Virus record (IMG/VR): IMGVR_UViG_3300023283_000173
Span: 16,495 to 80,494 of that record
Source of the DNA: a virus
Lineage: Duplodnaviria > Caudoviricetes
DNA length: 64,000 nt
Direction: 5' to 3' (one strand)
Shown: in pieces, positions 38,723 through 56,757 of the stretch
Layout of the letters: each line of letters begins with the position of its first letter
Numbering within the stretch: position 1 is the first letter of the stretch
Translations under genes and position numbers: made by a program
Notes under the pieces: generated by a model
The model's input: the letters and a program-made list of their open reading frames with translations, nothing else
Database searches by the model: none
What the model was told of the DNA's origin: nothing

Positions 38723-39048
38723 CTGACACGCTCCCACCCGTCCTCCTGCCTCCACTTGGCCTTACACTTACCATCGTCCCTCAGCTCCAGGAACACGGTC
38801 ACGTAGGGCGGCCGCGCACGATACATGACGAACTCTACGCCCTCCCGTACGCACACGACGAACTCCTCACGGCCCCTCACCTTCCTCGATCCTACGAACA
38901 TCAGCGTCAGACGGAGTGGGTTATCGTCAGGACCAGGTACCGGTATCGGGACTTCCGAGGCCCCGTAGTTCTCTCCGAACGAAGACGAACGCCACACAGT
39001 CATCTCGAAGGTATCGGCAACGTTCGCCAGCCTCACTCCTCCATCCAC
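38719..39048 (-). CDS. Hypothetical protein
   Basis: ATGA overlap with polymerase. Confidence 0.6.
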   Translation of the reverse strand: MDGGVRLANVADTFEMTVWRSSSFGENYGASEVPIPVPGPDDNPLRLTLMFVGSRKVRGREEFVVCVREGVEFVMYRARPPYVTVFLELRDDGKCKAKWRQEDGWERVR

Positions 39049-41581: not shown

Positions 41582-41607
41582 GTGTACCCTCCTTGGTCTC
41601 ACCTAGT

Positions 41608-41636
41608 ATACTAGTCCTATACACACTATCAGTCAA
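41608..41636 (-). promoter_or_regulatory. Sigma70-like promoter
   Basis: TTGACT-17-TAGTAT; -10 lies in palindrome CTAGTATACTAG. Confidence 0.7.
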
Positions 41637-41639
41637 TAT

Positions 41640-42155
41640 TTAATGCCTAGTCCACTCTCCGATAGTCATACCTACACGTCTAGCCAGTACCAACAACCAC
41701 GTCGGACACCTACGCACCAACTCCTCCTGCTCGGTCGTCTCGACGGCGCCCTCATAATACGCGGACCGAAGCACCTTTACTACGTCACCTCTAACCCCGC
41801 TCGCCTTCAGGACGAGAGCCATGATCGTACCCGTCCGCCCCTGTCCGAAGTGACAGCCAACACCCACCGTACCAGCCCTCACTCCCTCTGCGTAGACAAA
41901 TACGACCGACCTCAGTACCTGCCATAGCGTGGGTACACCGAAGTCTCGGACACCCACGTACAGGTCTCCGGACGCGACGAAGCCCTCTCGCAGGCACAGT
42001 GTGCGTACGAGTGGGTACTGAATACATACCTTGTCGTACGCACCTCCGACCATGACGAACAGGCCGGACCTGCCGTGAGATACTAAGACACCCACCGGGT
42101 CCAGGCCCACGGTACGGTGTGTCGACGTGTCGCGTGAGAGATCAACGGCGGTCAT
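41640..42155 (-). CDS. Second CX5R phosphatase-like protein
   Basis: VGVGCHFGQGRTG, LRSAYYEGAVETTEQ. Confidence 0.8.
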   Translation of the reverse strand: MTAVDLSRDTSTHRTVGLDPVGVLVSHGRSGLFVMVGGAYDKVCIQYPLVRTLCLREGFVASGDLYVGVRDFGVPTLWQVLRSVVFVYAEGVRAGTVGVGCHFGQGRTGTIMALVLKASGVRGDVVKVLRSAYYEGAVETTEQEELVRRCPTWLLVLARRVGMTIGEWTRH

Positions 42156-42377
42156 CTACGTCTCCATCTTGAACACAGACAATACCCTGCCGTCCTCGAC
42201 CCACATCAGGAAGTCCTCGAACCTACGGTTGGCGAACTCGTGTGTGACCGGTGCCGAACGTCTAGCCATACGTCTTATGCGTGCCGCCACATCACCCCCC
42301 ATACCGAGGGCGCGAGCGTCCTGAACGGCCCCTCTCGTAGGCTCGTACTTACGAAAATCCTCGTGACTACTCTCCAC
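42156..42377 (-). CDS. Small hypothetical protein
   Basis: Packing; SAPVTHEFANRRF. Confidence 0.6.
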   Translation of the reverse strand: MESSHEDFRKYEPTRGAVQDARALGMGGDVAARIRRMARRSAPVTHEFANRRFEDFLMWVEDGRVLSVFKMET

Positions 42378-42639
42378 GCGCCCTGTCTCCTCGTATGATC
42401 TCCAACGACCGCGGCGCGTCGATGACCAGCCTCACGTAAGCCGGTGAGCTACGACTCCCCACGGACAGAAACACGTCCGGAAGGACTTCGGTAGCCAGGT
42501 CCTCGGTGATCTCGAACCTCTCGCCGTCCTCCCTAACCACGATGCACCCCGCCGGTTTACTGACTATATCGCATACTACCAACACGGCGTCGCCGACATA
42601 CAGGTCTTCTCCCTCGTGCATCGTAAGGACTAGTGCCAC
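42367..42639 (-). CDS. CsrA/RsmA-like protein with internal insertion
   Basis: MALVLTMHEGEDLYVGD at N-terminus and VRLVIDAPRSLEIIR at C-terminus match CsrA beta strands. Confidence 0.6.
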   Translation of the reverse strand: MALVLTMHEGEDLYVGDAVLVVCDIVSKPAGCIVVREDGERFEITEDLATEVLPDVFLSVGSRSSPAYVRLVIDAPRSLEIIRGDRARGE

Positions 42640-45222: not shown

Positions 45223-45373
45223 CTCCCAGTGACTGAACCTCGTCCTTTACCCTGTCGTCCGTCTCGTCGACCGAAACACCCTCGTCATCGTACTCATAGT
45301 CGTAGCCGTGCCCGTCCAGCCAATCCACGAACTGCGACAACCCAACGTCGGACCCGAAGACGTACCTAGGCAA
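45209..45373 (-). CDS. Small acidic protein
   Basis: TTG start overlapping the terL stop; MPRYVFGSDVGLSQFVDWLDGHGYDYEY. Confidence 0.55.
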   Translation of the reverse strand: MPRYVFGSDVGLSQFVDWLDGHGYDYEYDDEGVSVDETDDRVKDEVQSLGGESV

Positions 45374-47675
45374 CTCGGTCCTCCCTCTGTACCTGCTCCA
45401 GTATAGATGCAGGCATATGCTCGAGCCCGACCTCGTGCCGGAGCCACACCTCGCGCTGACGCACGAGACCGAACGCCACCCCCGCCATAGCATCGGCAAC
45501 GTCCTTACTGAAGTTAGGGGGGTGATCGATCTTGTTCCGCTTGAAGTCCCTCTCCAACGAGACGATCTCCTTCTCGGCCTTGGCGTGAGGCGGAGCCTGC
45601 ACGCGCCGGTCATAAAGAGCCTGCTTCAGCACGTCATACGGCTGGGTCGTCGCGTCCACGCTCTGCACCCCCGTCGAGAACCCCTTCTGACTGAGGATCT
45701 GGAGTGAGTCCCTCGACTGCCACGAGTCGTAAGTCACCCACTTCACCGGGCACCCCAGGTCGCACAGCGCGTACAGTAGCTCCCTGATCTTCTCGAACGA
45801 CACCTCTCCTCCCCGCGGCGGCCGCACTTCAAGCAACACATCGTACTCGACCACCGGCAGAGTCTCCACCTCCTGACCGCGCCGCACGTGTACGAACCCG
45901 GGTACGTGGCCCACGGCGACCCCGGCCGAGTCAGAGCTCAGGCCCAGGTCCACGTGAGCGAAGCGTGGCTCGGACAGGTGACGCATCCGCTTCGGGTATA
46001 TCTGGACCTTCGTACCTCGGAAGTCACACCACTCCCGACTCAGTATCCTAGGCGATGTCCCAAAGCACGCAGCGACTGACTCCCTGTCCTGGATGAACGG
46101 GTGCACCGCCAGTGTAGAGACGCCCCCGATATCCCGCAGGGCCGCCATGAGGTCTTCCTCGAAGGCATGCCTGTAGTCCGTCGGTATGCGCTCGCACATG
46201 TCCCTGTCGTCTTCCGCGAGTTCCTCGTACTCGTCGTCCTCGAGTATCCGAGGTCTCCTGGACTCGTCCCCGCGGAACACCCAGAACCACCTCTCGGAGA
46301 ACGTACCCTCCGGCTTCACCTCCCAGAGCTTCTTGTCGAACACGAATATCTTATCGTTGCGCCGGGCCTCCTCGATCTTCTTGTCGGTGAACTCCCCGGG
46401 ATACTTCTTCGACGACACCAGGCAGAGCATCCCCGGTACGGTACCTCTCCGCATGAAGCGAGACTCACGACGACGCGAGATCGACCTGTAGAGCGCCAGT
46501 GCCTGGTCGTAGAAGCCATTCTCATCGCCGGCCTTAGACCGCTCGACCACGGCCATGTAGTTGCAGTTGTGCACGACTACGCCGTTGGCGACGTAGGTAT
46601 GCGTACGCCGCGTCTCTATATTGTACACCTGCCTATGACCTAATTTTCTGACGAAAACAACTCGTGCTCGATCAAGACCGTGAACACCCGACTCCCCTCC
46701 TCGGCGAACCTCCTCGCAGCCTCTTAGGCCCCCGGATCTTTCGGTGCCGGCACAATGAACCTCTTGTCCTACTCGTAGGTCTCCCAGACCTACCCAACCC
46801 GTGCTCGTCAGTAACGGGTGACTGGCAGTACCTACGAGACGAGACCCGTTATCGAACTCTACCTCCAATACATCTTTGAGTCCCGTGTATCTACTCGCCT
46901 CGACACGATCACGAACTACCTGTCCGTCCTCTACGCCGTATACAGCGTCTCCGGCGACCAAGGAATCGATCCTCACCGGTCCCGCGGGGGTGGACACGAG
47001 CGAGTCACCCACCAGGCACTCGTCCATGACGCCCCCGAACACGTTCTTCCCTATAGCAGCACTAGGGTCGCCACTAAGAGGCTCCACTATGATTCTGCGC
47101 GGGAACTCCATACGAGACTCTAGACTGCGGTTGTACGGAAAATCCCGGCGGAAGAACGGCGAGTTGTCGATCATCGCCCGAAAACGGTCGTAGTCGACGG
47201 ACTTGGACAGCTCCTTCTTCAGGTTCTGGAACACGAACTCGATCTCCGAGCTCGGCTGCAGGTCAAAGAACCCGTGCGGGTCGTCCATGCAGGCCAGCTC
47301 ATACAGCGAGTACGCGGTGGCCAGCAGGGCCAGCGTCGTTTTTCCACTTCCGATACTGCCCGTCAGGACGGCCTCGACGTAATTGCCGAGACACAGCTCC
47401 TCCAGACTTTCCATGACGACAGGGTAGACCTCCCCCGTCATCGCCATCAGGTCGGTCGACTCGACGAAGGTCCGAGGGTCGACCGGCAACTCCCGATACC
47501 TTATGGACGACCTGGCCCTGCGTCGTAGTTGTACTATCGCGCCGCGCAGGTACTCCAGCCTGTCGTCGGAATCGGACACGGTCTTCGAGTACGCCCACAC
47601 GACCCTCCCCGATCTGCCCATCCCAGAGAGTATCCTGCAGGCGGCCACCAGGGGGTGACAGACGTCACCCGTCAT
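45366..47675 (-). CDS. terL: Terminase large subunit (intein-containing)
   Basis: Walker A TGSIGSGKT, Walker B GGVMDE, nuclease HVDLG..SD.AG, SKDVADAMAG. Confidence 0.9.
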   Translation of the reverse strand: MTGDVCHPLVAACRILSGMGRSGRVVWAYSKTVSDSDDRLEYLRGAIVQLRRRARSSIRYRELPVDPRTFVESTDLMAMTGEVYPVVMESLEELCLGNYVEAVLTGSIGSGKTTLALLATAYSLYELACMDDPHGFFDLQPSSEIEFVFQNLKKELSKSVDYDRFRAMIDNSPFFRRDFPYNRSLESRMEFPRRIIVEPLSGDPSAAIGKNVFGGVMDECLVGDSLVSTPAGPVRIDSLVAGDAVYGVEDGQVVRDRVEASRYTGLKDVLEVEFDNGSRLVGTASHPLLTSTGWVGLGDLRVGQEVHCAGTERSGGLRGCEEVRRGGESGVHGLDRARVVFVRKLGHRQVYNIETRRTHTYVANGVVVHNCNYMAVVERSKAGDENGFYDQALALYRSISRRRESRFMRRGTVPGMLCLVSSKKYPGEFTDKKIEEARRNDKIFVFDKKLWEVKPEGTFSERWFWVFRGDESRRPRILEDDEYEELAEDDRDMCERIPTDYRHAFEEDLMAALRDIGGVSTLAVHPFIQDRESVAACFGTSPRILSREWCDFRGTKVQIYPKRMRHLSEPRFAHVDLGLSSDSAGVAVGHVPGFVHVRRGQEVETLPVVEYDVLLEVRPPRGGEVSFEKIRELLYALCDLGCPVKWVTYDSWQSRDSLQILSQKGFSTGVQSVDATTQPYDVLKQALYDRRVQAPPHAKAEKEIVSLERDFKRNKIDHPPNFSKDVADAMAGVAFGLVRQREVWLRHEVGLEHMPASILEQVQREDRVA
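46566..47018 (-). mobile_element. 151-aa mini-intein in TerL without a homing endonuclease
   Basis: CLVGDSLVST N-block, TASHPLLT B-block, VYNIET...YVANGVVVHN/C C-block; inserted right after the Walker B DE. Confidence 0.93.
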
Positions 47676-48282
47676 CGACCGTCTCACCCTCTATCACGCG
47701 GTAGAGCTCCTCCTGCTCCTCCGTCCAGTCGAAGTGAGTCTCCCGTCCGTCCGGACCGACCAGGGTCCCGGTCATGTGCTTCGGAGCCCGCGACATGATG
47801 CCTGTCTCCAGTTGCAGCCTGCCCAGCTCGACGAGCAGGTCCTTCAGGAAGCGCATCTCTTCCGTCACCATCTTGAGGAGCATACCTTGTGGACGCCCGG
47901 TCTTCCGCTCGTTCCTGGCGACGGCCTCGACGCGCTCCTTCTGCTCTACGACGAGTCTCTCTACCTCGTCTATCACGTTCAGGTTCTGCACGACGTGCGT
48001 CGTGGCCCGCTGTCTGTTCACTGCCAGGGCGCGCTCCGTGATCTCCTCGACCGTTCTCTTCCTAACGACGTTCCTGACGTACCGGAGCAGGTACCTGTGC
48101 AGGGTAGTTCTATTGACGCCCTGGACGAGGCCCCACTCCTCGTGGATCTTCTTGGCTACCTTGAGTGCGCTCACCCCGTCGCGCAGCAGTGCGTCGACCT
48201 CGTTCAGTTTATTCGGAGGCAACTCCAGGAGTTTGGACGGTATACCCTTGGCCACAGACCTACTCCGAGTCTGTCTCGGCAT
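47665..48282 (-). CDS. Terminase small subunit
   Basis: N-terminal HTH, coiled coil, overlaps terL start. Confidence 0.7.
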   Translation of the reverse strand: MPRQTRSRSVAKGIPSKLLELPPNKLNEVDALLRDGVSALKVAKKIHEEWGLVQGVNRTTLHRYLLRYVRNVVRKRTVEEITERALAVNRQRATTHVVQNLNVIDEVERLVVEQKERVEAVARNERKTGRPQGMLLKMVTEEMRFLKDLLVELGRLQLETGIMSRAPKHMTGTLVGPDGRETHFDWTEEQEELYRVIEGETVDDG

Positions 48283-49120
48283 CCTCGACGTTCGCCCTCG
48301 TCGGGTGCCCGGAGAGGTTCTTCGGTAGCTTCACCTCGGGAGACTTCTCCACGAGCTTCTCGACGAGCTCGTCGAGGTAGCCCTGTGCAATTGACTGCAG
48401 CACCCCTCCCACGATGTCATCCATGAGCCTCCGGTGTTCTATGCAGAGATCGGCCACCTTGTCGAACGCCCTCATCGTGTCCTTCCGAGCCTCCACCCAT
48501 ACCGACCTGCGTCCTCCGTAGTCGAAGACCATAAACCCGTACGGCACGGTGTCTCCGTATTTGGAGAACAGCTCGTTCAGCACGCGAGACAGCCCGTCGA
48601 TGGTCCTGATCTCCCTGGCGGCCTCCCTGAATTTTTCCCTCATGCCGGGGTCGTCGATCGACTTGGCCGTCTGGTCGATCAGCCTCTTGAACTCCTTCTC
48701 CTCGGCAAAGCCGAACGCCTCCTGCAGGACGTCGTCCGCATACTTGTCAGCCATCTGCTGATACAGATCGAAGAACGCGGCCGGGTCAAATTGACCCCTG
48801 ATCACGTTGTGCCTGACCATCTGGAAACGCTCGGCCTCCTCGTCGAACTCCGGGTCGTCTATCACCGAGCACGGAACCTCCTCATAGTCGAGATACACCG
48901 CGGCGTCGTACCTGTGATGTCCGCCAACGATACGGTAGGTGCCGTCGTCGAGAGGCCTGACCAGGATCGGGTCCGTGAATCCCATGCGCTGGACGTTGTC
49001 GACCAGGAGGTCGAACTGCCTCCCGGTCATCTTGTTCGGGTTGTCGGGATTCGGGACCAACGCCGAGACCGGCAGGTCCTTACGCACCACCATGTCGATC
49101 CTCCTTGATTTGGTGACCAC
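48260..49120 (-). CDS. ParB/Srx N-terminal-domain protein
   Basis: LVPNPDNPN, GFTDPILVR, YRIVGGHHR. Confidence 0.88.
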   Translation of the reverse strand: MVTKSRRIDMVVRKDLPVSALVPNPDNPNKMTGRQFDLLVDNVQRMGFTDPILVRPLDDGTYRIVGGHHRYDAAVYLDYEEVPCSVIDDPEFDEEAERFQMVRHNVIRGQFDPAAFFDLYQQMADKYADDVLQEAFGFAEEKEFKRLIDQTAKSIDDPGMREKFREAAREIRTIDGLSRVLNELFSKYGDTVPYGFMVFDYGGRRSVWVEARKDTMRAFDKVADLCIEHRRLMDDIVGGVLQSIAQGYLDELVEKLVEKSPEVKLPKNLSGHPTRANVEDAETDSE

Positions 49121-49132
49121 TATACCATCTCT

Positions 49133-50641
49133 TCACGTGCGCACCAAGTGCCCCACCTCCAGAGACGCGTCCTCATACCCGTAGTGCATCATCAAGGCTC
49201 GTCGGTATACGTTAAAATCAGACAGGAACGTCATAGTCTCTTTCATCCTGCTCTCTAAAGGTAGGCCCCTCGCCAACGTCTTCAGCTCTCCCGTATCACA
49301 CACGTCCTCTATCCTACTCAGCATCCGTATCTCGTCGGGACCCTCCAACGCACACACTACATCGTTGTTCTTAAGAGAGGCAGGAACACAATCGACCATC
49401 TCCCTCTCGGTCCTGTCGACGAACTCCAATAGCTGGTTGACGAACCACATCGCATTCTTGTCCTCCAAGAGAGGTAAGAACACCTCCTGCTGCCATCGAA
49501 GGAACCTCTCGTACATTTCCGCGTAGTCGTCGATCATGGCCCTCACGACCGCGTACGCCTCCTCGACGCCACTCACGAAAAACGGGTAGTCCTCGCCGAG
49601 CATACCAACCGAATAAGTCGCTCTCTGCACGATCGCCGGCGTACCGCGAACCAGCGGCTCAAGGAGCGACAGCGTGTACCCATCATCACGCGCCATCACG
49701 AGGATCACGTCCACCTCCTCGCGCATGGTCCGCCAGAACTCCTCTCTCGGCAGGCGCATGAACTCGATACCGGAGAGTTCTATTCCCGTCCTCTTAGACA
49801 CCCTCTTCGCCTGTGCCACTGCTGTTTTCGTGTTTGACGTACACACCATTCTGACGTGACCCCTGCCGCCTCGCACAATCCAGTGCCTCTCCATCACGGA
49901 CAGGATGTCCTCGACGCGCCTGTGCACGAGCTCGAACCGCTGCGTGAACCCGACCGTGAACGGCTTCTCCATCCTGTCAGTCCTGGCCACCTGCTCGCCG
50001 GTCTTCGATTCTACACCGGATAATCGCACTGGGACCGCCCCGAGAGACTTGTGATCCAGCGATCTCACCGCCGTAGGGGTCAAGTAGTGTCTGGCGACCT
50101 GCAGAACCTGTTCACGCTCCCACGGGTTTATGAACAGGTTCAGATCGGACGCGGAATAACCTACCAGGTGCTGCAGGTCCTGAACCTCCGAGACAGCCTG
50201 GGCCACACATTCCTTGAAGCTCATCACAGGCATGTCGTCTATCACGACGATCTTCCGGAGTCCCCTATATCCCGATCCTCGTATACCCGTCAGGTTCACC
50301 CTGTAGTGCGGAACCAGCGGGACCCGGCATGTCAGCAGCAGGTCCGTGTCCCAGTACGGTCCGCCGAAGTAGACTATCTTCCTGATCTCGTCCGAAAACC
50401 TGTAGTACTCCTTCATGCGGTCGGTATACATCTCCACATACAGGTACTCGAGTCGGGGGTGACGGTATAGCCAGGTCTCGTCTACGTTCCACCTCCCACA
50501 CCGTCCAGACCTCGGGAGTATAAATCTGATGTACACGTCCTCCCGCCTGTCCAGGATCTCCTTTGCCGCCTCCTGCATCTTGTAGCACATAACGCAGAAC
50601 TGCGGTTCTGCAGTGACGATGGGATCGAAAACCATTTTCAT
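49133..50641 (-). CDS. GT-B glycosyltransferase 3
   Basis: VILVMARDDGYTLSLLEPLVRGTPAIV resembles the GT4 D/E-x7-E donor-binding motif; in sugar operon. Confidence 0.7.
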   Translation of the reverse strand: MKMVFDPIVTAEPQFCVMCYKMQEAAKEILDRREDVYIRFILPRSGRCGRWNVDETWLYRHPRLEYLYVEMYTDRMKEYYRFSDEIRKIVYFGGPYWDTDLLLTCRVPLVPHYRVNLTGIRGSGYRGLRKIVVIDDMPVMSFKECVAQAVSEVQDLQHLVGYSASDLNLFINPWEREQVLQVARHYLTPTAVRSLDHKSLGAVPVRLSGVESKTGEQVARTDRMEKPFTVGFTQRFELVHRRVEDILSVMERHWIVRGGRGHVRMVCTSNTKTAVAQAKRVSKRTGIELSGIEFMRLPREEFWRTMREEVDVILVMARDDGYTLSLLEPLVRGTPAIVQRATYSVGMLGEDYPFFVSGVEEAYAVVRAMIDDYAEMYERFLRWQQEVFLPLLEDKNAMWFVNQLLEFVDRTEREMVDCVPASLKNNDVVCALEGPDEIRMLSRIEDVCDTGELKTLARGLPLESRMKETMTFLSDFNVYRRALMMHYGYEDASLEVGHLVRT

Positions 50642-51705
50642 GAGGCGCCTCTCTCGAACCCCACCATCTGCTCTACTGTCCTGTCTACCGGAGTCCGTGG
50701 CGCCCACCCGTACACGTCGACCAGCGGCCCGTTGTCGGTGACCCACCACGCGTGGTCTCCCATACGCACTCGATCGATGACCTCGTACTCGACACCTCTC
50801 CCGACCGCACTACCCACGAGGTCTATCGCCTCCAGTACCGACAAACTCGTCTCAAGCCCCCCACCGACGTTGTAGACGGACCCCGGCTCCACACCCACCT
50901 CGAGCATGGTGCACACCAGCTCGGCCAGATCAGCCGCGTGGAGGTTGTCGCGCACCTGCCTGCCGCCGTATCCCTCGACGACATAAGGCGTGCAGTTGAC
51001 TGCACTACGCACCAGGTAGGCAAGAAACCCGTGTAGCCTAACCCCAGCGTGGCCTGGTCCCGTCAAGCACCCCGCCCTAAGACAGACGGTGGGCATCCCG
51101 AAGTACCGCCCGTACTCCTGTACGTAGAGGTCTCCCGCCAACTTAGAGACACCGAACAAACTGTGCATCGACCTGTCGACGTCGAGGTCCCCTACTCGGA
51201 ACCCTCTCACAGACCACTCGGACGGCGTCAGTCTCGTATGTCTCACGTCGTAGTCTAGTCGGTTCGGTGCGTCGCCGTATACCTTGTTCGTACTCATGTA
51301 CACGAGGGGTATATCGGTAGAGACCTGTCGTACGGCGTCCAACAGTAATAACGTAGCCCGCGCGTTAACGTCGAAGTCCACCGTCGGTATGCGCACTGCC
51401 TTGTCGTGCGACGGCTGCGCCGCGGCGTGTACGACCCCCGACAAGTTTGGGATCGACGAGACGACCTCTCGTACACATCCCTCGTCGCGCAGGTCGATGT
51501 CGATGTGTACATAGGAGTCCCCTAGCTCTCTCTTCAATCTCCTCACGCTCCGCCTCGTCGACGCGGCCTCTCCGAAGAACTCACCACGCATGTCGCAATC
51601 TATGCCATAGACACGACAGCCGGGAGACCGACGAGTCAGCTCCCTCGCGACGGCCGAACCCACCAACCCTGCGGACCCCGTGATCAGAAACGAAAGGTCA
51701 CGCAT
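50638..51705 (-). CDS. NAD-dependent epimerase/dehydratase (CDP-paratose 2-epimerase-like SDR)
   Basis: ITGSAGLVG, HAAAQPSHD, STNKVYGD, FGVSK, CLRAGCLTGP, QVRDNLH. Confidence 0.9.
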   Translation of the reverse strand: MRDLSFLITGSAGLVGSAVARELTRRSPGCRVYGIDCDMRGEFFGEAASTRRSVRRLKRELGDSYVHIDIDLRDEGCVREVVSSIPNLSGVVHAAAQPSHDKAVRIPTVDFDVNARATLLLLDAVRQVSTDIPLVYMSTNKVYGDAPNRLDYDVRHTRLTPSEWSVRGFRVGDLDVDRSMHSLFGVSKLAGDLYVQEYGRYFGMPTVCLRAGCLTGPGHAGVRLHGFLAYLVRSAVNCTPYVVEGYGGRQVRDNLHAADLAELVCTMLEVGVEPGSVYNVGGGLETSLSVLEAIDLVGSAVGRGVEYEVIDRVRMGDHAWWVTDNGPLVDVYGWAPRTPVDRTVEQMVGFERGAS

Positions 51706-52666
51706 CAGTGAGCTCGGCTCTGAAGAAGTCCACCGTCTTCGACAATCCCTCGGAGAGGCTCACCCTCGGCTCCCAGCCCAGTAGCGTACGAGCCCTCGAT
51801 ATGTCGGGTCGTCTTTGCCTCGGGTCGTCCTGGGGTAGACTACAGTACGCTATACTGACCCCTCCGAACATCTCCGACACGATATTTGCCAGCTCTCCCA
51901 CAGCATACTCGTCGGGATTCCCGAGGTTCACAGGTCCGTATTTCCAGTCAACTTCTAACAGTCTAACGAGGCCGTCCACTAGGTCGTCAACGTAGCAGAG
52001 AGACCGCGTCTGACTGCCGTCGCCGTACACGGTGATAGGGCCTCCAGACAACGCCTGCGTGACGAAGTTAGACACCAGCCTCCCGTCCCGGGAGTGCATC
52101 ATCGGACCGTAGGTGTTGAATATCCTAGGTACACGAACGTCGAGATTGCGGTCACGCATGTAGTCGAAGCACAGCGTCTCAGCCGCGCGCTTCCCCTCAT
52201 CGTAGCAAGCCCGCGGGCCAACGGGATTCACGTTACCGCAGTACTCCTCAGTCTGCGGGTGCACCTCCGGGTCGCCGTACACTTCAGACGTACTCGCCTG
52301 CACGAACCGCGCCCCATAGAAGACAGCTACGTTCAGCAGATTGAACGTTCCCAAGACGGAGGTCCGCAGCGTGTACACGCGGTCCCTCTGATAGTGGATC
52401 GGACTCGCGGGACAGGCGAGGTTCCACACGACGTCTATACCTTCCCTCCGAGCGATCGGGGGTAGGTCCTCGATCAAGGTCCTCTCGTCTTCTTGGACGT
52501 CGCGATAGACGTGTTTGACGCCGTCCCCACAGAACGCACTTACCCTCTCCGTAGGCCAGCCTGTGAGACCGTTATCGACGATCACGACCTCGTCCCCTCG
52601 ACCGAGTAGTCGACGCGTCAGGTGCACCCCTATGAACCCCGCACCTCCGGCTATCAAGTGTCTCAT
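51698..52666 (-). CDS. uxs: UDP-glucuronate decarboxylase (UDP-xylose synthase)
   Basis: AGGAGFIG, NLACPASPIHYQ, STSEVYGDPEVHPQTEEY.GNVNP.GPRACYDEGKRAAET, RIFNTYGP, QTRSLCYVDD. Confidence 0.92.
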   Translation of the reverse strand: MRHLIAGGAGFIGVHLTRRLLGRGDEVVIVDNGLTGWPTERVSAFCGDGVKHVYRDVQEDERTLIEDLPPIARREGIDVVWNLACPASPIHYQRDRVYTLRTSVLGTFNLLNVAVFYGARFVQASTSEVYGDPEVHPQTEEYCGNVNPVGPRACYDEGKRAAETLCFDYMRDRNLDVRVPRIFNTYGPMMHSRDGRLVSNFVTQALSGGPITVYGDGSQTRSLCYVDDLVDGLVRLLEVDWKYGPVNLGNPDEYAVGELANIVSEMFGGVSIAYCSLPQDDPRQRRPDISRARTLLGWEPRVSLSEGLSKTVDFFRAELTDA

Positions 52667-53694
52667 CTCTCCCCTCCTAGTAGGAATCCATTCAGTATAG
52701 CCTCTATCTCGTCGACATAGCGACCCATGCCGTAGCGCCCCCTCACGTAAGGTGCCGCCTCCTCGTAGTTCTGGCGAACCCAGATCATCGTGTCTAATAG
52801 CCGATCTCTAGGTACCGTGAACCTGTAACCGGGTAGTAGTCGCCGCACCCAGTCCCGGTCCTTGAAGATACCCACCACCCCGCTGAGTAAGAGCTCCAAG
52901 TAAAACAACCCAAACGACTCGAACGCAGATGTAGATAGAAACATCCCGTACCCCCGTAACGCGGCGGCGTATTCGTCTCGATCCATGAACACAGGTAGGA
53001 CTTGGTATACCGACTCGTCGAGTCCGCTCCGCCCGAACATACTCTGCGACTGCCGCGTCATGTAGAAGTCAGTCCTCGCCACGAGACCTCGAGACGCGGC
53101 CCAGGCGTGATAGCGCGTCGTCAGGTCGTGGTGCTCCCGAACCCTCTTCTGGGGCTCACGGAACTGTGTATACGGCACAACCAGACGGTCGGGGTCGTTG
53201 TCTCCAGGAAAGAACTTGTCCTCCATGCCGTACTCCAACACGGAGGCACGCTGCTTGAACCTGCCGAACGTCTCCGCATTCAGGTACTCACCAGCCAGGG
53301 CGAGGACGTCTCCCAGCGACTTCTCAGTTGGAGAGACGTGCCTTACGGGGACGTCTCCATAGACGTCGCCGAAGAAGATCGACAAGTACCGGAGCCCGTT
53401 CGGCGCGTCCATGCCCTCCCAGTTGTCGATGGCGACGGACAGAAGTCCTGCAGGACGATATCGGGACTGATGAACCATCAGGTTTGCCACCCGCCGCTCC
53501 ATGAAAGTCACGACCGGCTTCCCGTCGTCCTCGACATAATAGTCTTCCTTCGTGCTCTGCTTCATCGGACGCATCGTCACACTCCACCCGCGCCGCTCGA
53601 GCTCGACACGCAGAACACGCGCCAGGACGGCGGAACTTAGCTCCTCCATGCCGTAGTACACCAGGACGACCTCTCTTGCCTGCCCAGACATCAT
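52663..53694 (-). CDS. GT-B glycosyltransferase 2
   Basis: FLSTSAFESFGLFYLELLLSG (GT4 E-x7-E). Confidence 0.82.
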   Translation of the reverse strand: MMSGQAREVVLVYYGMEELSSAVLARVLRVELERRGWSVTMRPMKQSTKEDYYVEDDGKPVVTFMERRVANLMVHQSRYRPAGLLSVAIDNWEGMDAPNGLRYLSIFFGDVYGDVPVRHVSPTEKSLGDVLALAGEYLNAETFGRFKQRASVLEYGMEDKFFPGDNDPDRLVVPYTQFREPQKRVREHHDLTTRYHAWAASRGLVARTDFYMTRQSQSMFGRSGLDESVYQVLPVFMDRDEYAAALRGYGMFLSTSAFESFGLFYLELLLSGVVGIFKDRDWVRRLLPGYRFTVPRDRLLDTMIWVRQNYEEAAPYVRGRYGMGRYVDEIEAILNGFLLGGER

Positions 53695-54731
53695 CGCCGC
53701 ACGAAGTCATCTAATATGCTCTCAACACGGTCGACGTACGTACTCATGGCGTACCGTTCGCGCAGCATCGGGGCGACCTCCTCGAGAACGTATCTCCGCG
53801 CCTCCTCGTAGTTCTGGCGAACCCAGATCATCGTGTCTAATAATTCGCTCGTCGGGACGACGAACCTGTAGCCAGGGACCAGGCCGCTCGGCCAGCCGGT
53901 ATCCTGAAATATCCCGACGACGCCACTCAGCAGAAGTTCGACGTAGTACATCCCGAACGACTCATAGGCCGACGTACACAGGAACATCCCGTATTGCCGA
54001 AGCCCGGTGGCCAGCTCTTGCCTGTCCGAGTAGCTCGGCTTGACCGTGTATACCGACTGGTCGATCGAACGCTTCTTGAGCTTCTTGGCAGCACCCTTGG
54101 TCGTCAGGAAGTCGGTCGACACATCGAGGCCTTGTTGTGCCGCCCAAGCGTGATACTTCGACGTGACCTCGTTGTGTCTCTTGATGTTCTTCTGCGTGTT
54201 GTCAGGCCAACTGTACGGCACAACCAGACGGTCGGGGTCGTTGTCTCCAGGAAAGAACTTGTCCTCCATGCCGTAGCCACATACACCTACCTGCGTCTGC
54301 ATCGCCCGTATACAAGACGGTGCCAAATATCTCTTGGCGACGTGCATCATCCCGCGAAGCGCGTAGTCAGTAGGCGACAGATGTTGGACAGGAATCGTCC
54401 CGAACTTCGGCTTGACGAAGCAGGCGAGATATTGCAGAGCGTCCGGTAGGGGGATGTCCTCCCAGTTATCGATCTGTATGGATAAGACCCCCTTGGGTCG
54501 GTACACCTGCTGGTGTACGAGGAGCGACGACACCCCTCTCTCCATAAAGATCACAACCGGTAGCTGGTTGTCCTCGACGTAGAACTTCTTCTCCGTCGAG
54601 GTCATGTACCTGTGGACGACCTCCCACCCACGAGCCTCAAGCTCCTCCTTCAGTCTGCTCGATAGGGAAGTAGGGCTGATACGTTCCGTCTTGTAGTAGT
54701 ATATAACGACTCTCTTACCATCTTCCGGCAT
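53691..54731 (-). CDS. GT-B glycosyltransferase 1 (paralogue of GT2)
   Basis: FLCTSAYESFGMYYVELLLSG. Confidence 0.82.
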   Translation of the reverse strand: MPEDGKRVVIYYYKTERISPTSLSSRLKEELEARGWEVVHRYMTSTEKKFYVEDNQLPVVIFMERGVSSLLVHQQVYRPKGVLSIQIDNWEDIPLPDALQYLACFVKPKFGTIPVQHLSPTDYALRGMMHVAKRYLAPSCIRAMQTQVGVCGYGMEDKFFPGDNDPDRLVVPYSWPDNTQKNIKRHNEVTSKYHAWAAQQGLDVSTDFLTTKGAAKKLKKRSIDQSVYTVKPSYSDRQELATGLRQYGMFLCTSAYESFGMYYVELLLSGVVGIFQDTGWPSGLVPGYRFVVPTSELLDTMIWVRQNYEEARRYVLEEVAPMLRERYAMSTYVDRVESILDDFVRR

Positions 54732-55830
54732 ACCCCATGATCCTCACCCGTGCTTCGTGTAGGTCAGGCAGCGCCTCCTTGACCAATGCCGTGACCTCGT
54801 CGAACGCCTCTGGTGGACAACCCGCACCCTTACATGTCATCGTCCGCATGGCCTCATCGTCGATGACGTCCCAATACGGATACACGAGTCGATTCCGACA
54901 GCGCGTCGCCTCGACCACGAAGACCGCGGTCCCGGCGACCTCAAACACCTTATCGTGCGGCATCAACTCGCTCAACCTTTTCTTCAGGTCAGCACGCATC
55001 TTCAGCCAGTATCCTATCGCGCGCTTCCCCTCTCCGCAGTGTCTGTCCAGTCCCTCGCTAGGGTACACCCCGATCTTCGGAGCCTGCCAGAACTCATCGT
55101 CTCTGAACTCGCCATCGCCAGCCAAAAACAGGTCGTTCACGAGAGGTAGGAATGCGGGCATTTGCGACCACTGAACCTTCAGACCCCAGTCGATCGTCTC
55201 CAACATCTGCTCCGGACAACCCCTCTTGGCGTAGGCCTCAAGCAGCCTCGTCTTTCCGTTTGAGGGAGATACCTTCGGACGCGACCTGCCGGTAGCCAGC
55301 AACCAGGCCGACATGAGCGCCTCGTCCATGTCGTCCGTCCTGGCGAGGAGCCGTACGAGAGAATCAGCGGACACCGAGTATAGCTTGCTGCGGAGGTCAT
55401 TCCGGCTGACTGAGTGCTCCGCAAGAGTCCCCATCTCGCAGGAGTTCCGGTCCTTCGGAGACCGACACATCTGCTCGACCAGGTAACACAGAGTCTTCGT
55501 CGCGTCCCCGTTCCCCCACATCCGTCGTCGATTCATAGAAGCCCAGAAGTACTGGCGACACAGTTCCAGATTCCCTACGCCTATGTCCTCGACGACGACC
55601 ACACCAAGACGCCTCCACGCGTAGTTAGGGTCGAACGTACACAGTCCCTCGACGAGATCGAGCGCTGTATCCACGTCGCCTCGTCGAATAGCCTTCTGCA
55701 TAGAAGAAGACACCAACCATTTCTTACCTCCGTCTCGCAAGACTGTTCTACGCGGCTTATAATCATATAACTCGACCGCGGACTGTAACTTTTCTGCTAC
55801 GTCCTCCCCTATAATCCCTGTCATCTGCAT
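54715..55830 (-). CDS. RarA/MgsA C-terminal-domain-like protein lacking the ATPase
   Basis: SSMQKAIRRGD...AL...P..AWRRL.V...EDIG matches the MgsA helical domain pattern; no Walker A. Confidence 0.6.
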   Translation of the reverse strand: MQMTGIIGEDVAEKLQSAVELYDYKPRRTVLRDGGKKWLVSSSMQKAIRRGDVDTALDLVEGLCTFDPNYAWRRLGVVVVEDIGVGNLELCRQYFWASMNRRRMWGNGDATKTLCYLVEQMCRSPKDRNSCEMGTLAEHSVSRNDLRSKLYSVSADSLVRLLARTDDMDEALMSAWLLATGRSRPKVSPSNGKTRLLEAYAKRGCPEQMLETIDWGLKVQWSQMPAFLPLVNDLFLAGDGEFRDDEFWQAPKIGVYPSEGLDRHCGEGKRAIGYWLKMRADLKKRLSELMPHDKVFEVAGTAVFVVEATRCRNRLVYPYWDVIDDEAMRTMTCKGAGCPPEAFDEVTALVKEALPDLHEARVRIMGYAGRW

Positions 55831-55856
55831 TTACATGCCTCCTTGCGTTATACTTC

Positions 55857-55885
55857 ATTATACTTATTAACCCACAACAGTACAA
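55857..55885 (-). promoter_or_regulatory. Sigma70 promoter at the head of the glycosylation-terminase gene run
   Basis: TTGTAC-17-TATAAT then AAGGAGG RBS. Confidence 0.8.
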
Positions 55886-55888
55886 TAG

Positions 55889-56428
55889 TTATAAATGCCT
55901 CTCTGGGCTACTGACGCCCCTCCGGCTGAAGTAGCGCAGGCGGTACTTATCCTCTATGGACCTCGACCCGAGCAGTCTGTTGCACTCCTCGTGGCACAGC
56001 GTGACGTTCCTCAGTCTATTGTCACCCCCGTTGGCCATGGGGTCGAGGTGCTCGAACGTCACGTCGGCCCCGGTCATCCTACTCCCGCACAGCCAGCAGC
56101 GACCTCCGTCACGCATGTACAGGAACGTACGCAGACGACCCCTCCTTCTGCCACTCTTGGGCATGCACCCACCGACGAAGAAGTACGACTCGACGTCGCT
56201 CGCGTCTATCGTCTTACAGTACCAGTCGTAGGTCCGTATCACCCTGGCCGGCCACTTGGTCAGACCGTGTTTGTCGAAGTACACCACGAACACGCCCCCC
56301 TTGCCCCTGACCCTGAGGGCCTCCCACTCGCTCGTGGGGTCCATCACGACAGCTCCGTGACCCCTCGCCCACCTCTCGAACCCGAGCATGTCCACCGAAC
56401 CGAGGTAGGGTCCACTCTCGTATCTCAT
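55889..56428 (-). CDS. HNH endonuclease
   Basis: CWLCG, TFEHLDP..NGG.N..RNV.LCH..CN. Confidence 0.88.
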   Translation of the reverse strand: MRYESGPYLGSVDMLGFERWARGHGAVVMDPTSEWEALRVRGKGGVFVVYFDKHGLTKWPARVIRTYDWYCKTIDASDVESYFFVGGCMPKSGRRRGRLRTFLYMRDGGRCWLCGSRMTGADVTFEHLDPMANGGDNRLRNVTLCHEECNRLLGSRSIEDKYRLRYFSRRGVSSPERHL

Positions 56429-56757
56429 CCTAGTGCTCCGTGCCTGACCTCCACCTCGTACCCCCTGGTGCGGAGCTCATGCGCGAGCAACTCCACGACA
56501 GCCACGCTGCGGTGGACGCCGCCGTAGCACCCGAGGGCGACGAACTCTCCGTCATCTACGCGGTCGACCAGGTCGGCGACCATCTGCGCCCCGCCGGAGT
56601 TCGCGACGAACTCCTGCACCCTCGGGTCTCTCCCGTCGAGGTCTCTCATGCCGGATACGAAGTGCGGGTTGGGCAGGTGACGGCAGTCGACAACGCGCCT
56701 GATCACGGCAGCCTGCGGCGCACCGTCGCGGTACGCGAACGACAACAGCCTGATCAT
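56425..56757 (-). CDS. RapZ C-terminal-domain-like protein
   Basis: LLSFAYRDG.P, VDCRHLPNPHF...R.L.GRD..V, ALGCYGGVHRSVAV. Confidence 0.82.
   Translation of the reverse strand: MIRLLSFAYRDGAPQAAVIRRVVDCRHLPNPHFVSGMRDLDGRDPRVQEFVANSGGAQMVADLVDRVDDGEFVALGCYGGVHRSVAVVELLAHELRTRGYEVEVRHGALG

What the first reader, a model, noticed from the sequence alone, without database searches (positions are those of the whole stretch)
48260..55885. Nucleotide-pentose synthesis plus three glycosyltransferases in one gene run with ParB and terminase: candidate new DNA or virion glycosylation system
Seen: behind a TTGTAC-17-TATAAT promoter, overlapping or closely abutting genes run RarA-C-like, GT1, GT2, UDP-glucuronate decarboxylase, epimerase-like SDR, GT3, ParB-N, TerS, TerL. 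Known: UXS makes UDP-xylose, a 4-epimerase can turn that into UDP-L-arabinose, some phages glycosylate DNA bases (T-even glucosyl-hmC, RB69 arabinosyl-hmC), ParB-N proteins recur in phage DNA-modification clusters, and some mycobacteriophages glycosylate virion proteins. Inference: the phage makes its own pentose or deoxy-sugar donor and builds an oligosaccharide of up to three steps on its DNA or particle, timed with packaging. No hydroxymethylase, TET or thymidylate-synthase homologue is visible in the window, so the acceptor is unknown.
Basis: partly seen in the sequence, partly recalled or inferred. Interest (0 to 1): 0.88.

Follow-up and report, generated by a model that had tools for sequence, protein, structure and literature searches.

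The report
Phage xylose glycosylation module beside terminase
An uncultured ~100-kb phage carries, just ahead of its DNA-packaging genes, an enzyme that makes UDP-xylose and three sugar transferases. They belong to a widespread, unstudied phage module (transferase plus ParB-like plus RarA-C-like protein) whose target, probably phage DNA and possibly particle proteins, is unknown.

Summary
On the minus strand, tightly coupled genes run: RarA/MgsA-C-like protein, two paralogous small GT-B transferases, a UDP-glucuronate decarboxylase (UXS), a second SDR, a large GT-B transferase, ParB-like protein, TerS, and TerL with an intein.

Corrections:
- The -35 hexamer matches the consensus at only 3 of 6 positions.
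- GT3 starts at 50644, not 50749.
- The second SDR is closest to CDP-tyvelose 2-epimerase, not a 4-epimerase, and has Phe in place of the catalytic Tyr.

Comparative genomics shows a mobile module. Large GT, small GT and ParB-like protein are the only genes shared with an otherwise unrelated Arthrobacter phage; a RarA-C-like protein is weakly matched too. In relatives the sugar genes between the conserved parts vary.

No ThyA, ThyX, TET/JBP or DpdA homologue is in this 80-kb contig. Seven complete phages that carry the module lack ThyA too. So this is not a known DNA-glycosylation pathway.

The published restriction resistance of relative DLP3 is mostly absence of sites: 10 of 15 enzymes have none. 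Carriers avoid palindromes, which argues against a global protective modification.

Best reading: ParB-assisted, partial glycosylation of phage DNA (about 0.4). Virion protein glycosylation is about 0.3.

This scan noted the same GT-ParB-terminase module in other genomes.

The parts
56425..56757 (-). RapZ C-terminal domain (PapZ_C) protein, 110 aa. In relatives it lies directly upstream of the RarA-C-like gene. A possible accessory part.
   Evidence: Pfam PF22740 E 8e-25. NCBIfam RapZ positions 162-275. Same position in RcZahn, TM16, L003, L018, L030 and L031.
55889..56428 (-). HNH homing-type endonuclease inserted between the PapZ_C and RarA-C-like genes. Not part of the module.
   Evidence: Pfam HNH_5 and HNH, and several PHROG HNH families. 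Absent at this position in relatives.
55857..55885 (-). Promoter-like TTGTAC-17-TATAAT in the 58-nt gap, followed by AAGGAGG and ATG
   Evidence: Read directly. Single match. The -35 matches at only 3 of 6 positions and the generic scan does not report it.
54715..55830 (-). RarA/MgsA C-terminal-domain-like protein, 371 aa, without an AAA+ ATPase domain. A conserved member of the module.
   Evidence: PDB 2qw6 and 2r9g (MgsA_C domains) E 3e-5. Pfam MgsA_C E 1e-3, below threshold. Atlas structural hits to RarA. Homologues lie beside or between the GTs in 18 loci. Conserved SSxQKAIRRG, EDIGxGD and MCxxPK motifs.
53691..54731 (-). GT1, small GT-B (GT4-like) glycosyltransferase, 346 aa; candidate extension transferase
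   Evidence: AF2 pLDDT 93.7. VIA Z 28.4 to BshA 3mbo over 312 residues, rmsd 2.9. E257-x7-E265 conserved. phrog_30253 E 5.5e-6. 9 of 43 family members hit Glycos_transf_1.
52663..53694 (-). GT2, paralogue of GT1, 343 aa
   Evidence: 51% identity to GT1, E 9e-128.
51698..52666 (-). UDP-glucuronate decarboxylase (UDP-xylose synthase), 322 aa
   Evidence: Human UXS1 E 1.8e-100, 340 bits, full length. The next family (Pal) is at 1.6e-36. GAGFIG and YDEGKR motifs.
50638..51705 (-). Atypical extended SDR, 355 aa, CDP-tyvelose-2-epimerase-like, with Phe at the catalytic Tyr position
   Evidence: PDB 9rl0 and 1orr E 1e-33 and 5e-32. In the alignment HSLFGVSK pairs with HSPYGCSK. The L003 orthologue, 48% identical, has the same Phe.
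49133..50644 (-). GT3, large conserved GT-B (GT4-like) glycosyltransferase of about 503 aa, with a C-terminal extension of about 85 aa; candidate priming transferase
   Evidence: 23 homologues of 484-502 aa. AF2 pLDDT 90.3. VIA Z 23.9 to BshA over residues 1-413. BFVD full-length relatives in Arthrobacter phages, TM 0.7. Always near ParB-like, TerS and TerL.
48260..49120 (-). ParB-CTPase-fold (ParB_N) protein, 286 aa; the conserved partner of GT3
   Evidence: Pfam ParB_N E 8e-10. phrog_26387 E 3e-84. 33% identical to Arthrobacter phage DanielleIgnace gp98, E 6e-44. A large GT lies beside it in every lineage inspected.
47665..48282 (-). Small terminase subunit (by position and homology to relatives); downstream neighbour in the same operon
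   Evidence: Overlaps ParB by 23 nt. Homologues lie between ParB-like and TerL in relatives.
45366..47687 (-). Large terminase subunit interrupted by an intein
   Evidence: About 50% identity to TerL of TM16 and RcZahn in two pieces. Intein_splicing/HINT at residues 230-375.

Best explanation
This is the pentose (UDP-xylose) variant of a mobile, late-expressed phage glycosylation module.

Shown:
- UXS should convert host UDP-glucuronate to UDP-xylose.
- Three soluble GT4-type GT-B transferases are encoded with it: a large one conserved across phage lineages (GT3) and two tandem paralogues (GT1, GT2).
- The transferases travel with a ParB-CTPase-fold protein and a RarA/MgsA-C-like protein.
- The genes are translationally coupled to TerS and TerL.

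Inferred:
- GT3 primes a phage-intrinsic, host-independent acceptor. GT1 and GT2 extend it, giving a glycan of up to three residues that contains xylose or a xylose-derived pentose.
- The acceptor is most likely phage DNA, modified after replication and before packaging. The ParB-like protein would load or activate the transferase on DNA, as ParB-like proteins do for phage thymine dioxygenases.
- The modification would be partial or sequence-limited, not a complete base replacement.
- The chemical handle on the base is unknown, because no ThyA-type or TET/JBP-type enzyme is present.
- The role of the Tyr-less SDR is unknown. It could be a non-redox partner or an unusual epimerase.
For: Enzymes:
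- UXS: E 1.8e-100 to human UXS1.
- GT-B folds: GT3 pLDDT 90, Z 23.9; GT1 pLDDT 93.7, Z 28.4.
- The top structural neighbours (BshA 3mbo, MshA 3c4q, sucrose-phosphate synthase 6kih, 7qsg, 2gej, 7fg9/8x3q, 5ze7) are the same ones reported for the DNA arabinosyl and glucosyl transferases (two tested experimentally, the rest predicted) of RB69, Acinetobacter phage DLP3 and RL38JI (PMC13326640). T4 alpha-glucosyltransferase 1y8z is also among the GT1 hits.

Module:
- GT3, small GT and ParB-like protein are the only BLASTP-detectable genes shared with Arthrobacter phage DanielleIgnace, whose terminase is unrelated. A weak RarA-C motif match exists too.
- The ParB-like proteins are 33% identical.
- Every lineage with a full-length ParB-like homologue that I inspected has a 480-530 aa GT beside it.
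- The RarA-C-like gene sits between the large and small GT in L012 and L018, and directly after the large GT in L017.
- Sugar genes vary between the conserved parts: UGDH+UXS+SDR, or PIG-L+dehydratase+DegT+methyltransferase+WbqC.

Association with nucleic acid:
- ParB_N here matches ParB-fused type II DNA methyltransferases.
- Other lineages have DprA-like and RapZ-C neighbours.
- Published: phage ParB-like proteins are obligatory activators of post-replicative, sequence-specific DNA thymine dioxygenases, and GT, ParB and terminase co-occur (PMC13229309; bioRxiv 2023.12.21.572611).

Other:
- Junctions of -23 to +12 nt tie the genes to TerS.
- No module protein has a transmembrane segment.
- Steno DLP3 DNA was reported uncut by SmaI despite 68 sites.
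Against: - No handle-making enzyme. ThyA, ThyX, Tet_JBP and TGT are absent from the contig. ThyA is absent from seven complete carriers: RcZahn, TM16, PG28, KarBoss, DanielleIgnace, Steno DLP3 and RcDurkin, and also from JP1.
- The whole-contig Pfam inventory shows no oxygenase, dCTPase or dNMP kinase.
- Carriers avoid 6-bp palindromes: own contig mean z -1.56 with CAGCTG at 0 against 20 expected, DanielleIgnace -1.88, Steno DLP3 -4.0 with 25 of 64 palindromes absent. This implies that virion DNA is exposed to type II restriction.
- The only experimental hint, DLP3 resistance to 15 enzymes, is largely explained by 10 enzymes having no site and by ClaI sites overlapping GATC.
- The GT4 fold does not tell DNA from protein, lipid or small-molecule acceptors.
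- The pI values of the GTs are neutral.
- The contig is only about 83% complete.
Confidence: 0.4

Rival explanations
1. Virion (or other phage protein) glycosylation. The module is expressed with the late packaging and structural genes and decorates capsid, tail or fibre proteins with a lineage-specific glycan, as in mycobacteriophages and giant viruses. The ParB-like and RarA-C-like genes would be neighbours for packaging reasons only.
For: - Late operon position.
- The phages carry their own diverse nucleotide-sugar pathways, typical of surface glycans.
- Palindrome avoidance suggests unprotected DNA.
- The sugar-pathway SDR gp97 was abundant in Steno DLP3 virion preparations.
- DanielleIgnace has a further GT inside its structural gene block.
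- An earlier scan note on a relative proposed a Ser/Thr-rich acceptor protein (unchecked).
- RarA-C-like look-alikes are common in giant viruses.
Against: - The major capsid protein has no Ser/Thr-rich C-terminal tail, and no mucin-like stretch occurs in any structural ORF of the window; the maximum is 13 S/T in 30 residues.
- The module is shared by phages with no detectable similarity in any structural protein.
- This reading does not explain why the ParB-like and RarA-C-like genes move with the GTs, or why the RarA-C-like gene sits between the GTs.
- DanielleIgnace gp21 is not a member of these GT families.
Confidence: 0.3
2. Synthesis of a soluble small-molecule glycoside, such as a low-molecular-weight thiol-like, signalling or inhibitory compound. 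The GT4 plus PIG-L deacetylase pairs of bacillithiol, mycothiol, lincomycin and selenoneine pathways are the analogy.
For: - The best structural matches are small-molecule GT4s: BshA, MshA, SenB, LmbT and the BH4 glucosyltransferase.
- Relatives pair the GT with a PIG-L deacetylase and a GNAT.
- Deoxy-amino-sugar tailoring resembles antibiotic sugar pathways.
Against: - These structural hits are generic for GT4 and are also the top hits of proven DNA transferases.
- No aglycone pathway, ligase or exporter is present.
- The window's variant has no PIG-L.
- The link to ParB-like protein and terminase is unexplained.
Confidence: 0.1
3. Modification of host envelope glycans (LPS or O-antigen, capsule, teichoic acid) for superinfection exclusion or lysogenic conversion, as the authors proposed for Steno DLP3 gp102.
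For: - GT4 enzymes include LPS-core transferases: WaaG Z about 21, and the RfaB CD hit quoted in PMC7326821.
- Some carriers are temperate (DLP3 and DLP5).
Against: - No transmembrane segment, flippase or Gtr-type component.
- The same GT family and partners occur in phages of Vibrio, Stenotrophomonas, Rhizobium, Rhodobacter and Gram-positive Arthrobacter. These hosts share no envelope acceptor.
- The acceptor-side residues of GT3 are invariant across these hosts.
- The genes lie in a late packaging operon.
Confidence: 0.07
4. Glycosylation of RNA (for example a tRNA or sRNA base) or of a nucleotide pool metabolite. The RapZ-C-like RNA-binding protein and the phage tRNAs in relatives suggest this.
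For: - A PapZ_C gene sits directly upstream in many relatives.
- Relatives encode tRNAs.
- From my own knowledge, untested here: a GT4-family enzyme mannosylates queuosine in animals.
Against: - PapZ_C is absent from the Arthrobacter, RcF/JP1 and several other carriers.
- No queuosine genes or TGT are present.
- There is no direct evidence.
Confidence: 0.05

Closest known systems
GT-ParB-like-terminase cassettes of cultured relatives: Stenotrophomonas phages DLP3, DLP5 and Summit (gp96-gp106), Rhizobium phages RHph_TM16 and Y1_11, Rhodobacter phage RcZahn (gp140-146 plus gp1), Vibrio phages KarBoss and PG28
   Same: - Homologous large GT (26-27% identity over 73-84% of the protein by tblastn), ParB-like protein (41-57%; about 25% in PG28), TerS and TerL (about 50%).
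- RarA-C-like and PapZ_C genes are shared too.
- Same order and orientation, and the same PPDK-like and phosphatase block after TerL.
   Different: - They make amino or deoxy-hexose donors (PIG-L, WcaG-type SDR, DegT/WecE aminotransferase, methyltransferase), not a pentose.
- Most lack the two small GTs.
- None has been characterised biochemically.
- Only the metagenomic relative L003/L015 shares UXS and the Tyr-less SDR, and it adds a UGDH-like gene.
Glycosylated 5-hydroxycytosine and 5-hydroxymethylcytosine DNA pathways (RB69, Acinetobacter phage DLP3, RL38JI, T-even phages; PMC13326640)
   Same: - Phage-encoded nucleotide-pentose supply plus up to three sequential GT-B/GT4-like transferases.
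- Identical structural neighbours in the PDB.
- A glycan of up to three residues.
   Different: - Those pathways need a ThyA homologue (5hodCMP or 5hmdCMP synthase), a dCTPase and dNMP kinases, and they replace all cytosines. None of these is present here or in complete relatives.
- The pentose there is arabinofuranose made from ribulose-5-phosphate, not xylose made from UDP-GlcA.
ParB-dependent phage thymine dioxygenase (5mYOX) hypermodification clusters (O'Toole et al., PNAS 2026, PMC13229309) and MT/5mYOX/GT clusters (bioRxiv 2023.12.21.572611)
   Same: A ParB-CTPase-fold protein sits beside a DNA-modifying enzyme, often with GTs, sugar epimerases and terminase. The modification is post-replicative and sequence-specific, so partial.
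   Different: No 5mYOX/TET-JBP gene is detectable here or in four relatives. Here the ParB-like protein pairs with a GT4 transferase, not a dioxygenase.
Mycobacteriophage virion glycosylation (Che8, Corndog, Myrna; Freeman et al. 2023, known to me and cited in hits)
   Same: Several phage GTs, sometimes with sugar-tailoring genes, are expressed late and decorate phage structures.
   Different: Those acceptors are Ser/Thr-rich C-terminal extensions of capsid and tail-tube proteins. No such tails occur here. Those clusters are not reported to include ParB-like or RarA-C-like partners (my knowledge, not tested here).
UDP-xylose synthase (UXS1, PDB 2b69 and 4gll) and CDP-tyvelose 2-epimerase (PDB 1orr and 9rl0)
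   Same: UXS: full-length match at E 1e-100 with the catalytic motifs. SDR2: full-length match at E 1e-33.
   Different: SDR2 has Phe in place of the catalytic Tyr, so it may not catalyse the transient oxidation that TyvE and GalE use.

Membership tests
UDP-glucuronate decarboxylase / UDP-xylose synthase (extended SDR) | Full-length similarity to characterised UXS that is clearly above other SDR subfamilies | tested here: met
   Human UXS1 E 1.8e-100 (340 bits) over residues 2-319. The next family is at 1.6e-36, and ArnA is near 1e-21.
UDP-glucuronate decarboxylase / UDP-xylose synthase (extended SDR) | N-terminal GxxGxxG NAD motif and catalytic YxxxK | tested here: met
   GGAGFIG near the N-terminus and CYDEGKR, read from the translation.
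UDP-glucuronate decarboxylase / UDP-xylose synthase (extended SDR) | Decarboxylation of UDP-GlcA to UDP-xylose in vitro | not testable with these tools
   Needs an enzyme assay.
   HSLFGVSK aligns to HSPYGCSK of TyvE, so Tyr is replaced by Phe. The L003 orthologue has the same.
   The best matches are CDP-tyvelose 2-epimerases at 1e-33. GalE-type enzymes are at about 1e-14.
GT-B fold, GT4-like (Glycos_transf_1) glycosyltransferases | Two Rossmann-like domains with an interdomain cleft | tested here: met
   GT1: Z 28.4, rmsd 2.9, 312 residues aligned to BshA. GT3: Z 23.9, rmsd 3.5, 333 residues aligned. pLDDT 93.7 and 90.3.
GT-B fold, GT4-like (Glycos_transf_1) glycosyltransferases | Pfam PF00534 above the gathering score | tested here: inconclusive
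   GT1 E 0.046 (13.7 bits against a cut-off of 26.4). GT2 and GT3 get no hit. 9 of 43 small-GT family members hit at E down to 2.6e-5.
GT-B fold, GT4-like (Glycos_transf_1) glycosyltransferases | E-x7-E motif in the C-terminal domain | tested here: met
   GT1 E257-x7-E265, invariant or nearly invariant in 43 sequences. GT3 has D-x7-E with E328 invariant.
Known phage DNA glycosylation pathways (hmC, hoC or hmU based) | A handle-making enzyme: a ThyA homologue or a 5mYOX/TET-JBP dioxygenase | tested here: not met
   PF00303 and PF12851 are absent from the 80-kb contig. PF00303 is absent from 8 complete carrier genomes and PF12851 from 4. The contig is 83% complete, but the complete relatives settle the point for the module.
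Known phage DNA glycosylation pathways (hmC, hoC or hmU based) | Transfer of sugar to DNA by the GT | not testable with these tools
   Needs in vitro transfer assays or nucleoside LC-MS.
Known phage DNA glycosylation pathways (hmC, hoC or hmU based) | Genome-wide protection, seen as relaxed restriction-site avoidance | tested here: not met
   6-bp palindromes are depleted: own contig z -1.56, DanielleIgnace -1.88, Steno DLP3 -4.0.
ParB-dependent phage DNA base-modification systems (O'Toole 2026) | An orphan ParB-CTPase-fold gene next to the modifying enzyme | tested here: met
   The ParB_N protein lies 12 nt downstream of GT3. The pair is conserved in all inspected lineages.
ParB-dependent phage DNA base-modification systems (O'Toole 2026) | The partner is a clade C1 5mYOX thymine dioxygenase | tested here: not met
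   No Tet_JBP match at E <= 0.1 in G000, RcZahn, TM16, PG28 or KarBoss.
Mycobacteriophage-type virion O-glycosylation | Ser/Thr-rich C-terminal extensions on the capsid or tail-tube subunit | tested here: not met
   The major capsid protein candidate ends ...VVYNNIAQ. No structural ORF exceeds 13 S/T in 30 residues.
Mycobacteriophage-type virion O-glycosylation | Glycans on virion proteins | not testable with these tools
   Needs glycoproteomics or staining.
Seroconverting O-antigen modification (Gtr-type or membrane GT) | Membrane-embedded transferase, flippase or bactoprenol-linked components | tested here: not met
   The maximum 19-residue Kyte-Doolittle hydropathy is 0.7-1.5 for all seven module proteins. 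No Gtr or flippase family appears in the contig inventory.

The most novel reading that the evidence does not exclude
The GT3/ParB-like/RarA-C-like trio is a new kind of DNA glycosylation system that needs no ThyA- or TET-made hydroxyl handle. A ParB-type CTPase clamp would load at specific sites and guide a GT4 transferase to glycosylate a canonical base, or a still unrecognised intermediate, in a sequence-limited way just before packaging. In this phage the product would be a xylose-containing oligosaccharide, a sugar not yet reported on any nucleic acid. The mark might identify phage DNA for packaging or block defences other than type II restriction, rather than acting as a general shield.
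Probability: 0.22. Interest if true: 0.9.

Novelty: new variant of a known kind. Interest (0 to 1): 0.66.

Why it matters
The same pairing of a large transferase with a ParB-like protein occurs in phages of Vibrio, Stenotrophomonas, Rhizobium, Agrobacterium, Rhodobacter and Arthrobacter, and in many metagenomic contigs. No member has been studied.

If the target is DNA, the module would extend phage DNA glycosylation beyond the ThyA- and TET-dependent routes, add a pentose made from UDP-glucuronate, and give ParB-fold proteins a second role in base modification.

If the target is the virion, it would be the first self-supplied glycan coat described for this group of Gram-negative siphoviruses, to my knowledge.

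Either outcome bears on the therapeutic use of carriers such as Stenotrophomonas DLP3, through its effect on defence evasion, immune recognition and engineering. Several carriers are in culture, so the question can be tested directly.

The reanalysis also corrects a published inference: DLP3's restriction resistance is mostly absence of sites.

Tried and rejected
- Megablast of the region against 50,697 phage records found nothing.
- Pfam and NCBIfam give no above-threshold family for GT1, GT2, GT3 or the RarA-C-like protein.
- The word-indexed homologue search with GT1 found only itself and its paralogue. The exhaustive profile search was needed.
- Sequence search of GT3 against PDB gave only E about 0.4.
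- PADLOC shows no defence-system family for the GTs, the RarA-C-like protein, PapZ_C or the PPDK-like protein.
- The ESM Atlas gave no usable hit for the conserved 323-aa unknown at 40631-41602.
- Handle-enzyme searches for ThyA, ThyX, TGT/DpdA and Tet_JBP were all negative on the contig.
- pI of the GT families as a proxy for DNA binding was uninformative, at 5.7-9.2.
- I first treated the DLP3 report of resistance to 15 of 15 enzymes as strong support for DNA modification. I rejected that weight after counting sites.
- The promoter as a statistically notable feature is rejected. The region has 1 promoter-like site against 3.5 in shuffles, and the stated site fails the scan's -35 criterion.
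- L007:735-1715 was tried as a RarA-C-like homologue and does not align.
- DanielleIgnace gp21 is not a member of the small-GT family; hhalign probability is 1%.
- Literature searches for any characterisation of this module in Vibrio or Stenotrophomonas phages found none.

Full report
**What is there.** The window is the right-hand 64 kb of an 80.5-kb IMG/VR viral contig estimated at 83% complete. Nearly all genes lie on the minus strand. The stated run is real:
- RarA/MgsA-C-like protein, 54715-55830
- GT1, 53691-54731
- GT2, 52663-53694
- UDP-glucuronate decarboxylase (UXS), 51698-52666
- a second extended SDR (SDR2), 50638-51705
- GT3, 49133-50644
- ParB_N protein, 48260-49120
- TerS, 47665-48282
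- an intein-containing TerL, 45366-47687

Junctions are -17, -4, -4, -8, -7, +12 and -23 nt. TTGTAC-17-TATAAT sits at 55885-55857 in a 58-nt gap, followed by AAGGAGG and ATG. Its -35 matches the consensus at only 3 of 6 positions, and the generic scan does not report it. The 538-aa ORF overlaps SDR2, so GT3 most likely starts at 50644, which matches its 484-502 aa homologues. Upstream lie an HNH endonuclease and a RapZ-C-domain gene. In relatives the RapZ-C gene directly precedes the RarA-C-like gene, so the HNH is an insertion.

**The enzymes.**
- UXS is secure. It matches human UXS1 at E 1.8e-100 over its full length, far above other SDR families, and has the GxxGxxG and YDEGKR motifs.
- SDR2 is not a GalE-type 4-epimerase. 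Its best solved relatives are CDP-tyvelose 2-epimerases (E 1e-33), and the catalytic Tyr is replaced by Phe (HSLFGVSK against HSPYGCSK). The change is conserved in the 48%-identical orthologue of a metagenomic relative. Its activity is therefore open.
- GT1 and GT2 are 51%-identical paralogues. An exhaustive profile search finds about 80 cluster representatives of this small-GT family at E < 1e-30, and more distantly the GT3-type proteins. Nine of 43 members reach Pfam Glycos_transf_1.
- The AF2 models are confident, at pLDDT 93.7 and 90.3, and both are GT-B/GT4 folds. GT1 has Z 28.4 to BshA. GT3 residues 1-416 have Z 23.9, and an extra C-terminal part of about 85 residues is untested.
- Their structural neighbours are the same ones published for the DNA arabinosyl and glucosyl transferases (two tested experimentally, the rest predicted) of RB69, Acinetobacter phage DLP3 and RL38JI. 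These neighbours are generic for GT4 and do not identify the acceptor.
- The 371-aa protein matches solved MgsA_C domains at E 3e-5 and lacks an ATPase domain.

**The module in other phages.** TerL and GT3 place the phage with Rhizobium RHph_TM16 and Y1_11, Rhodobacter RcZahn, Stenotrophomonas DLP3, DLP5 and Summit, and Vibrio KarBoss- and PG28-like siphoviruses. All keep a large GT beside ParB-like, TerS and TerL, usually with RarA-C-like and RapZ-C genes. The sugar genes between them vary: PIG-L deacetylase, dehydratase or epimerase, DegT aminotransferase, methyltransferase and WbqC in most; UGDH-like plus UXS plus the Tyr-less SDR plus one small GT in the closest relative, whose GT3 is 53% identical. 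The RarA-C-like gene lies between the large and small GT in L012 and L018, and directly after the large GT in L017.

Most of these phages are related to each other, so their shared gene order is weak evidence. The informative case is Arthrobacter phage DanielleIgnace. Its terminase is unrelated. A BLASTP comparison of all ORFs finds only three shared genes: GT3 with gp97, ParB-like with gp98 (33% identity, E 6e-44), and GT1/GT2 with gp91. There is also a weak RarA-C motif match to gp90. RcF-cluster Rhodobacter phages and Agrobacterium phage JP1 have the GT and ParB-like pair with a DprA-like gene and no sugar genes. The transferases and the ParB-like protein therefore form a mobile functional unit, probably with the RarA-C-like protein.

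**What is the acceptor?** The known DNA-glycosylation routes need a ThyA homologue or a TET/JBP dioxygenase to make a hydroxyl handle. Neither is on this contig. ThyA is absent from eight complete carriers and TET/JBP from the four tested. DpdA and ThyX are absent here as well. A Pfam inventory of the contig shows replication, recombination and structural genes, a truncated PPDK-like kinase, two PTP-type phosphatases and a MuF-ADP-ribosyltransferase, but no oxygenase.

The one experimental hint is that Stenotrophomonas DLP3 DNA resisted 15 of 15 restriction enzymes (PMC7326821). It weakens on inspection:
- Ten of the 15 enzymes have no site in the 96.9-kb genome.
- 25 of 64 six-base palindromes are absent (mean z -4.0).
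- 16 of 18 ClaI sites overlap GATC.
- Only SmaI (68 sites), EcoRI (7), NdeI (4) and XbaI (1) remain unexplained.

This contig and DanielleIgnace also avoid palindromes, at z -1.56 and -1.88. CAGCTG occurs 0 times here against 20 expected. Such avoidance implies that virion DNA meets restriction enzymes largely unprotected. That argues against a T-even-like global modification.

A recent paper shows that phage ParB-like proteins are obligatory activators of post-replicative, sequence-specific thymine dioxygenases, and that GT, ParB and terminase genes co-occur (PMC13229309). The ParB_N domain here also resembles those fused to phage DNA methyltransferases. A partial, ParB-assisted modification of DNA fits both the conserved partnership and the palindrome avoidance.

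For the virion alternative, the major capsid protein has no Ser/Thr-rich tail and no structural ORF has a mucin-like stretch. The module also occurs in phages with unrelated structural proteins. The late operon position, the glycan diversity and the abundance of the pathway SDR in DLP3 virion preparations keep that reading alive. Host-envelope modification is unlikely: all module proteins are soluble, and the hosts span Gram-negative and Gram-positive bacteria.

**Verdict.**
- I read this as the UDP-xylose variant of an uncharacterised mobile phage glycosylation module.
- DNA as acceptor, partial and ParB-assisted: about 0.4.
- Virion protein: about 0.3.
- The remaining alternatives share the rest.
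- It is not a member of any characterised DNA-glycosylation pathway, because the defining handle enzyme was tested for and is absent.
- Earlier notes of this scan describe the same GT-ParB-terminase module in other genomes, with the target likewise unresolved. One of them leaned on the restriction resistance of cultured relatives, which my site counts undercut.

Noticed in passing
L037+L038 (Stenotrophomonas phage DLP3, MT110073.1, whole genome): The published resistance to 15 restriction enzymes is mostly absence of sites. BamHI, HindIII, KpnI, SphI, PstI, SacI, SalI, ApaI, SpeI and XhoI have 0 sites. 25 of 64 six-base palindromes are absent (mean z -4.0), for example CGATCG at 0 against 55 expected. 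16 of 18 ClaI sites overlap GATC. Only SmaI (68 sites) is a substantial unexplained case.
   Followed up: yes
window 50638-51705 (-): This extended SDR has Phe where the YxxxK catalytic Tyr should be (HSLFGVSK). The NAD-binding motif and the Lys are intact. The orthologue at L003:8932-9999 has the same change, so it looks like a conserved functional variant, not decay.
   Followed up: partly
window 45366-47687 (-): The large terminase is interrupted by an intein (Intein_splicing/HINT at residues about 230-375). Relatives' TerL aligns in two pieces around it.
   Followed up: partly
window 55889-56428 (-): An HNH endonuclease gene is inserted between the RapZ-C-like and RarA-C-like genes, which are adjacent in relatives. 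The promoter-like site lies just after it.
   Followed up: partly
window 39997-44729 (-): A PPDK-like protein (699 aa) matches the first 500 or so residues of PPDK at E 1.5e-119, lacks the pyruvate-binding barrel and has an unrelated C-terminus. A CsrA-like gene, two PTP/DSP-type phosphatases and a conserved 323-aa unknown follow it. The block is conserved after TerL in the proteobacterial relatives and absent from the Arthrobacter carrier, so it is not part of the mobile GT module.
   Followed up: partly
whole contig (G000), e.g. CAGCTG: CAGCTG (the PvuII site) is completely absent, at 0 against 20 expected (z -8.8). GGGCCC occurs 3 times against 18 expected. This suggests restriction pressure from the unknown host.
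   Followed up: partly
L038:17295-17975 (Steno DLP3 gp99, annotated 'Erm'): The methyltransferase reported as an erythromycin-resistance Erm sits inside the sugar cluster, at the position held by a sugar-pathway methyltransferase in relatives (RcZahn gp145, L009-L011). Its primary role may be sugar methylation. I did not test this.
   Followed up: no
L003:12512-13315: The closest relative adds a short (267 aa) UDP-glucose-6-dehydrogenase-like gene after its small GT. It matches only the N-terminal and central domains and lacks the C-terminal UDP-binding domain. The window's phage has no UGDH and presumably relies on host UDP-glucuronate.
   Followed up: partly
window 33027-34556 (-): A MuF-like head protein is fused to an ADP-ribosyltransferase domain (ADPrib_exo_Tox, E 3e-16), directly after the portal gene. 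DNA polymerase A (36356-38755) lies between the packaging block and the portal gene.
   Followed up: no
window 48260-49120 (-), residues 72-188: The ParB-like protein gives a weak, far sub-threshold NCBIfam match to 'P450-derived glycosyltransferase activator' (E 1.7e-4, 21 bits against a cut-off of 343) and to the ParB/Srx-fold serine kinase SerK (E 4e-5). Probably noise, but noted because the protein is a GT partner.
   Followed up: no
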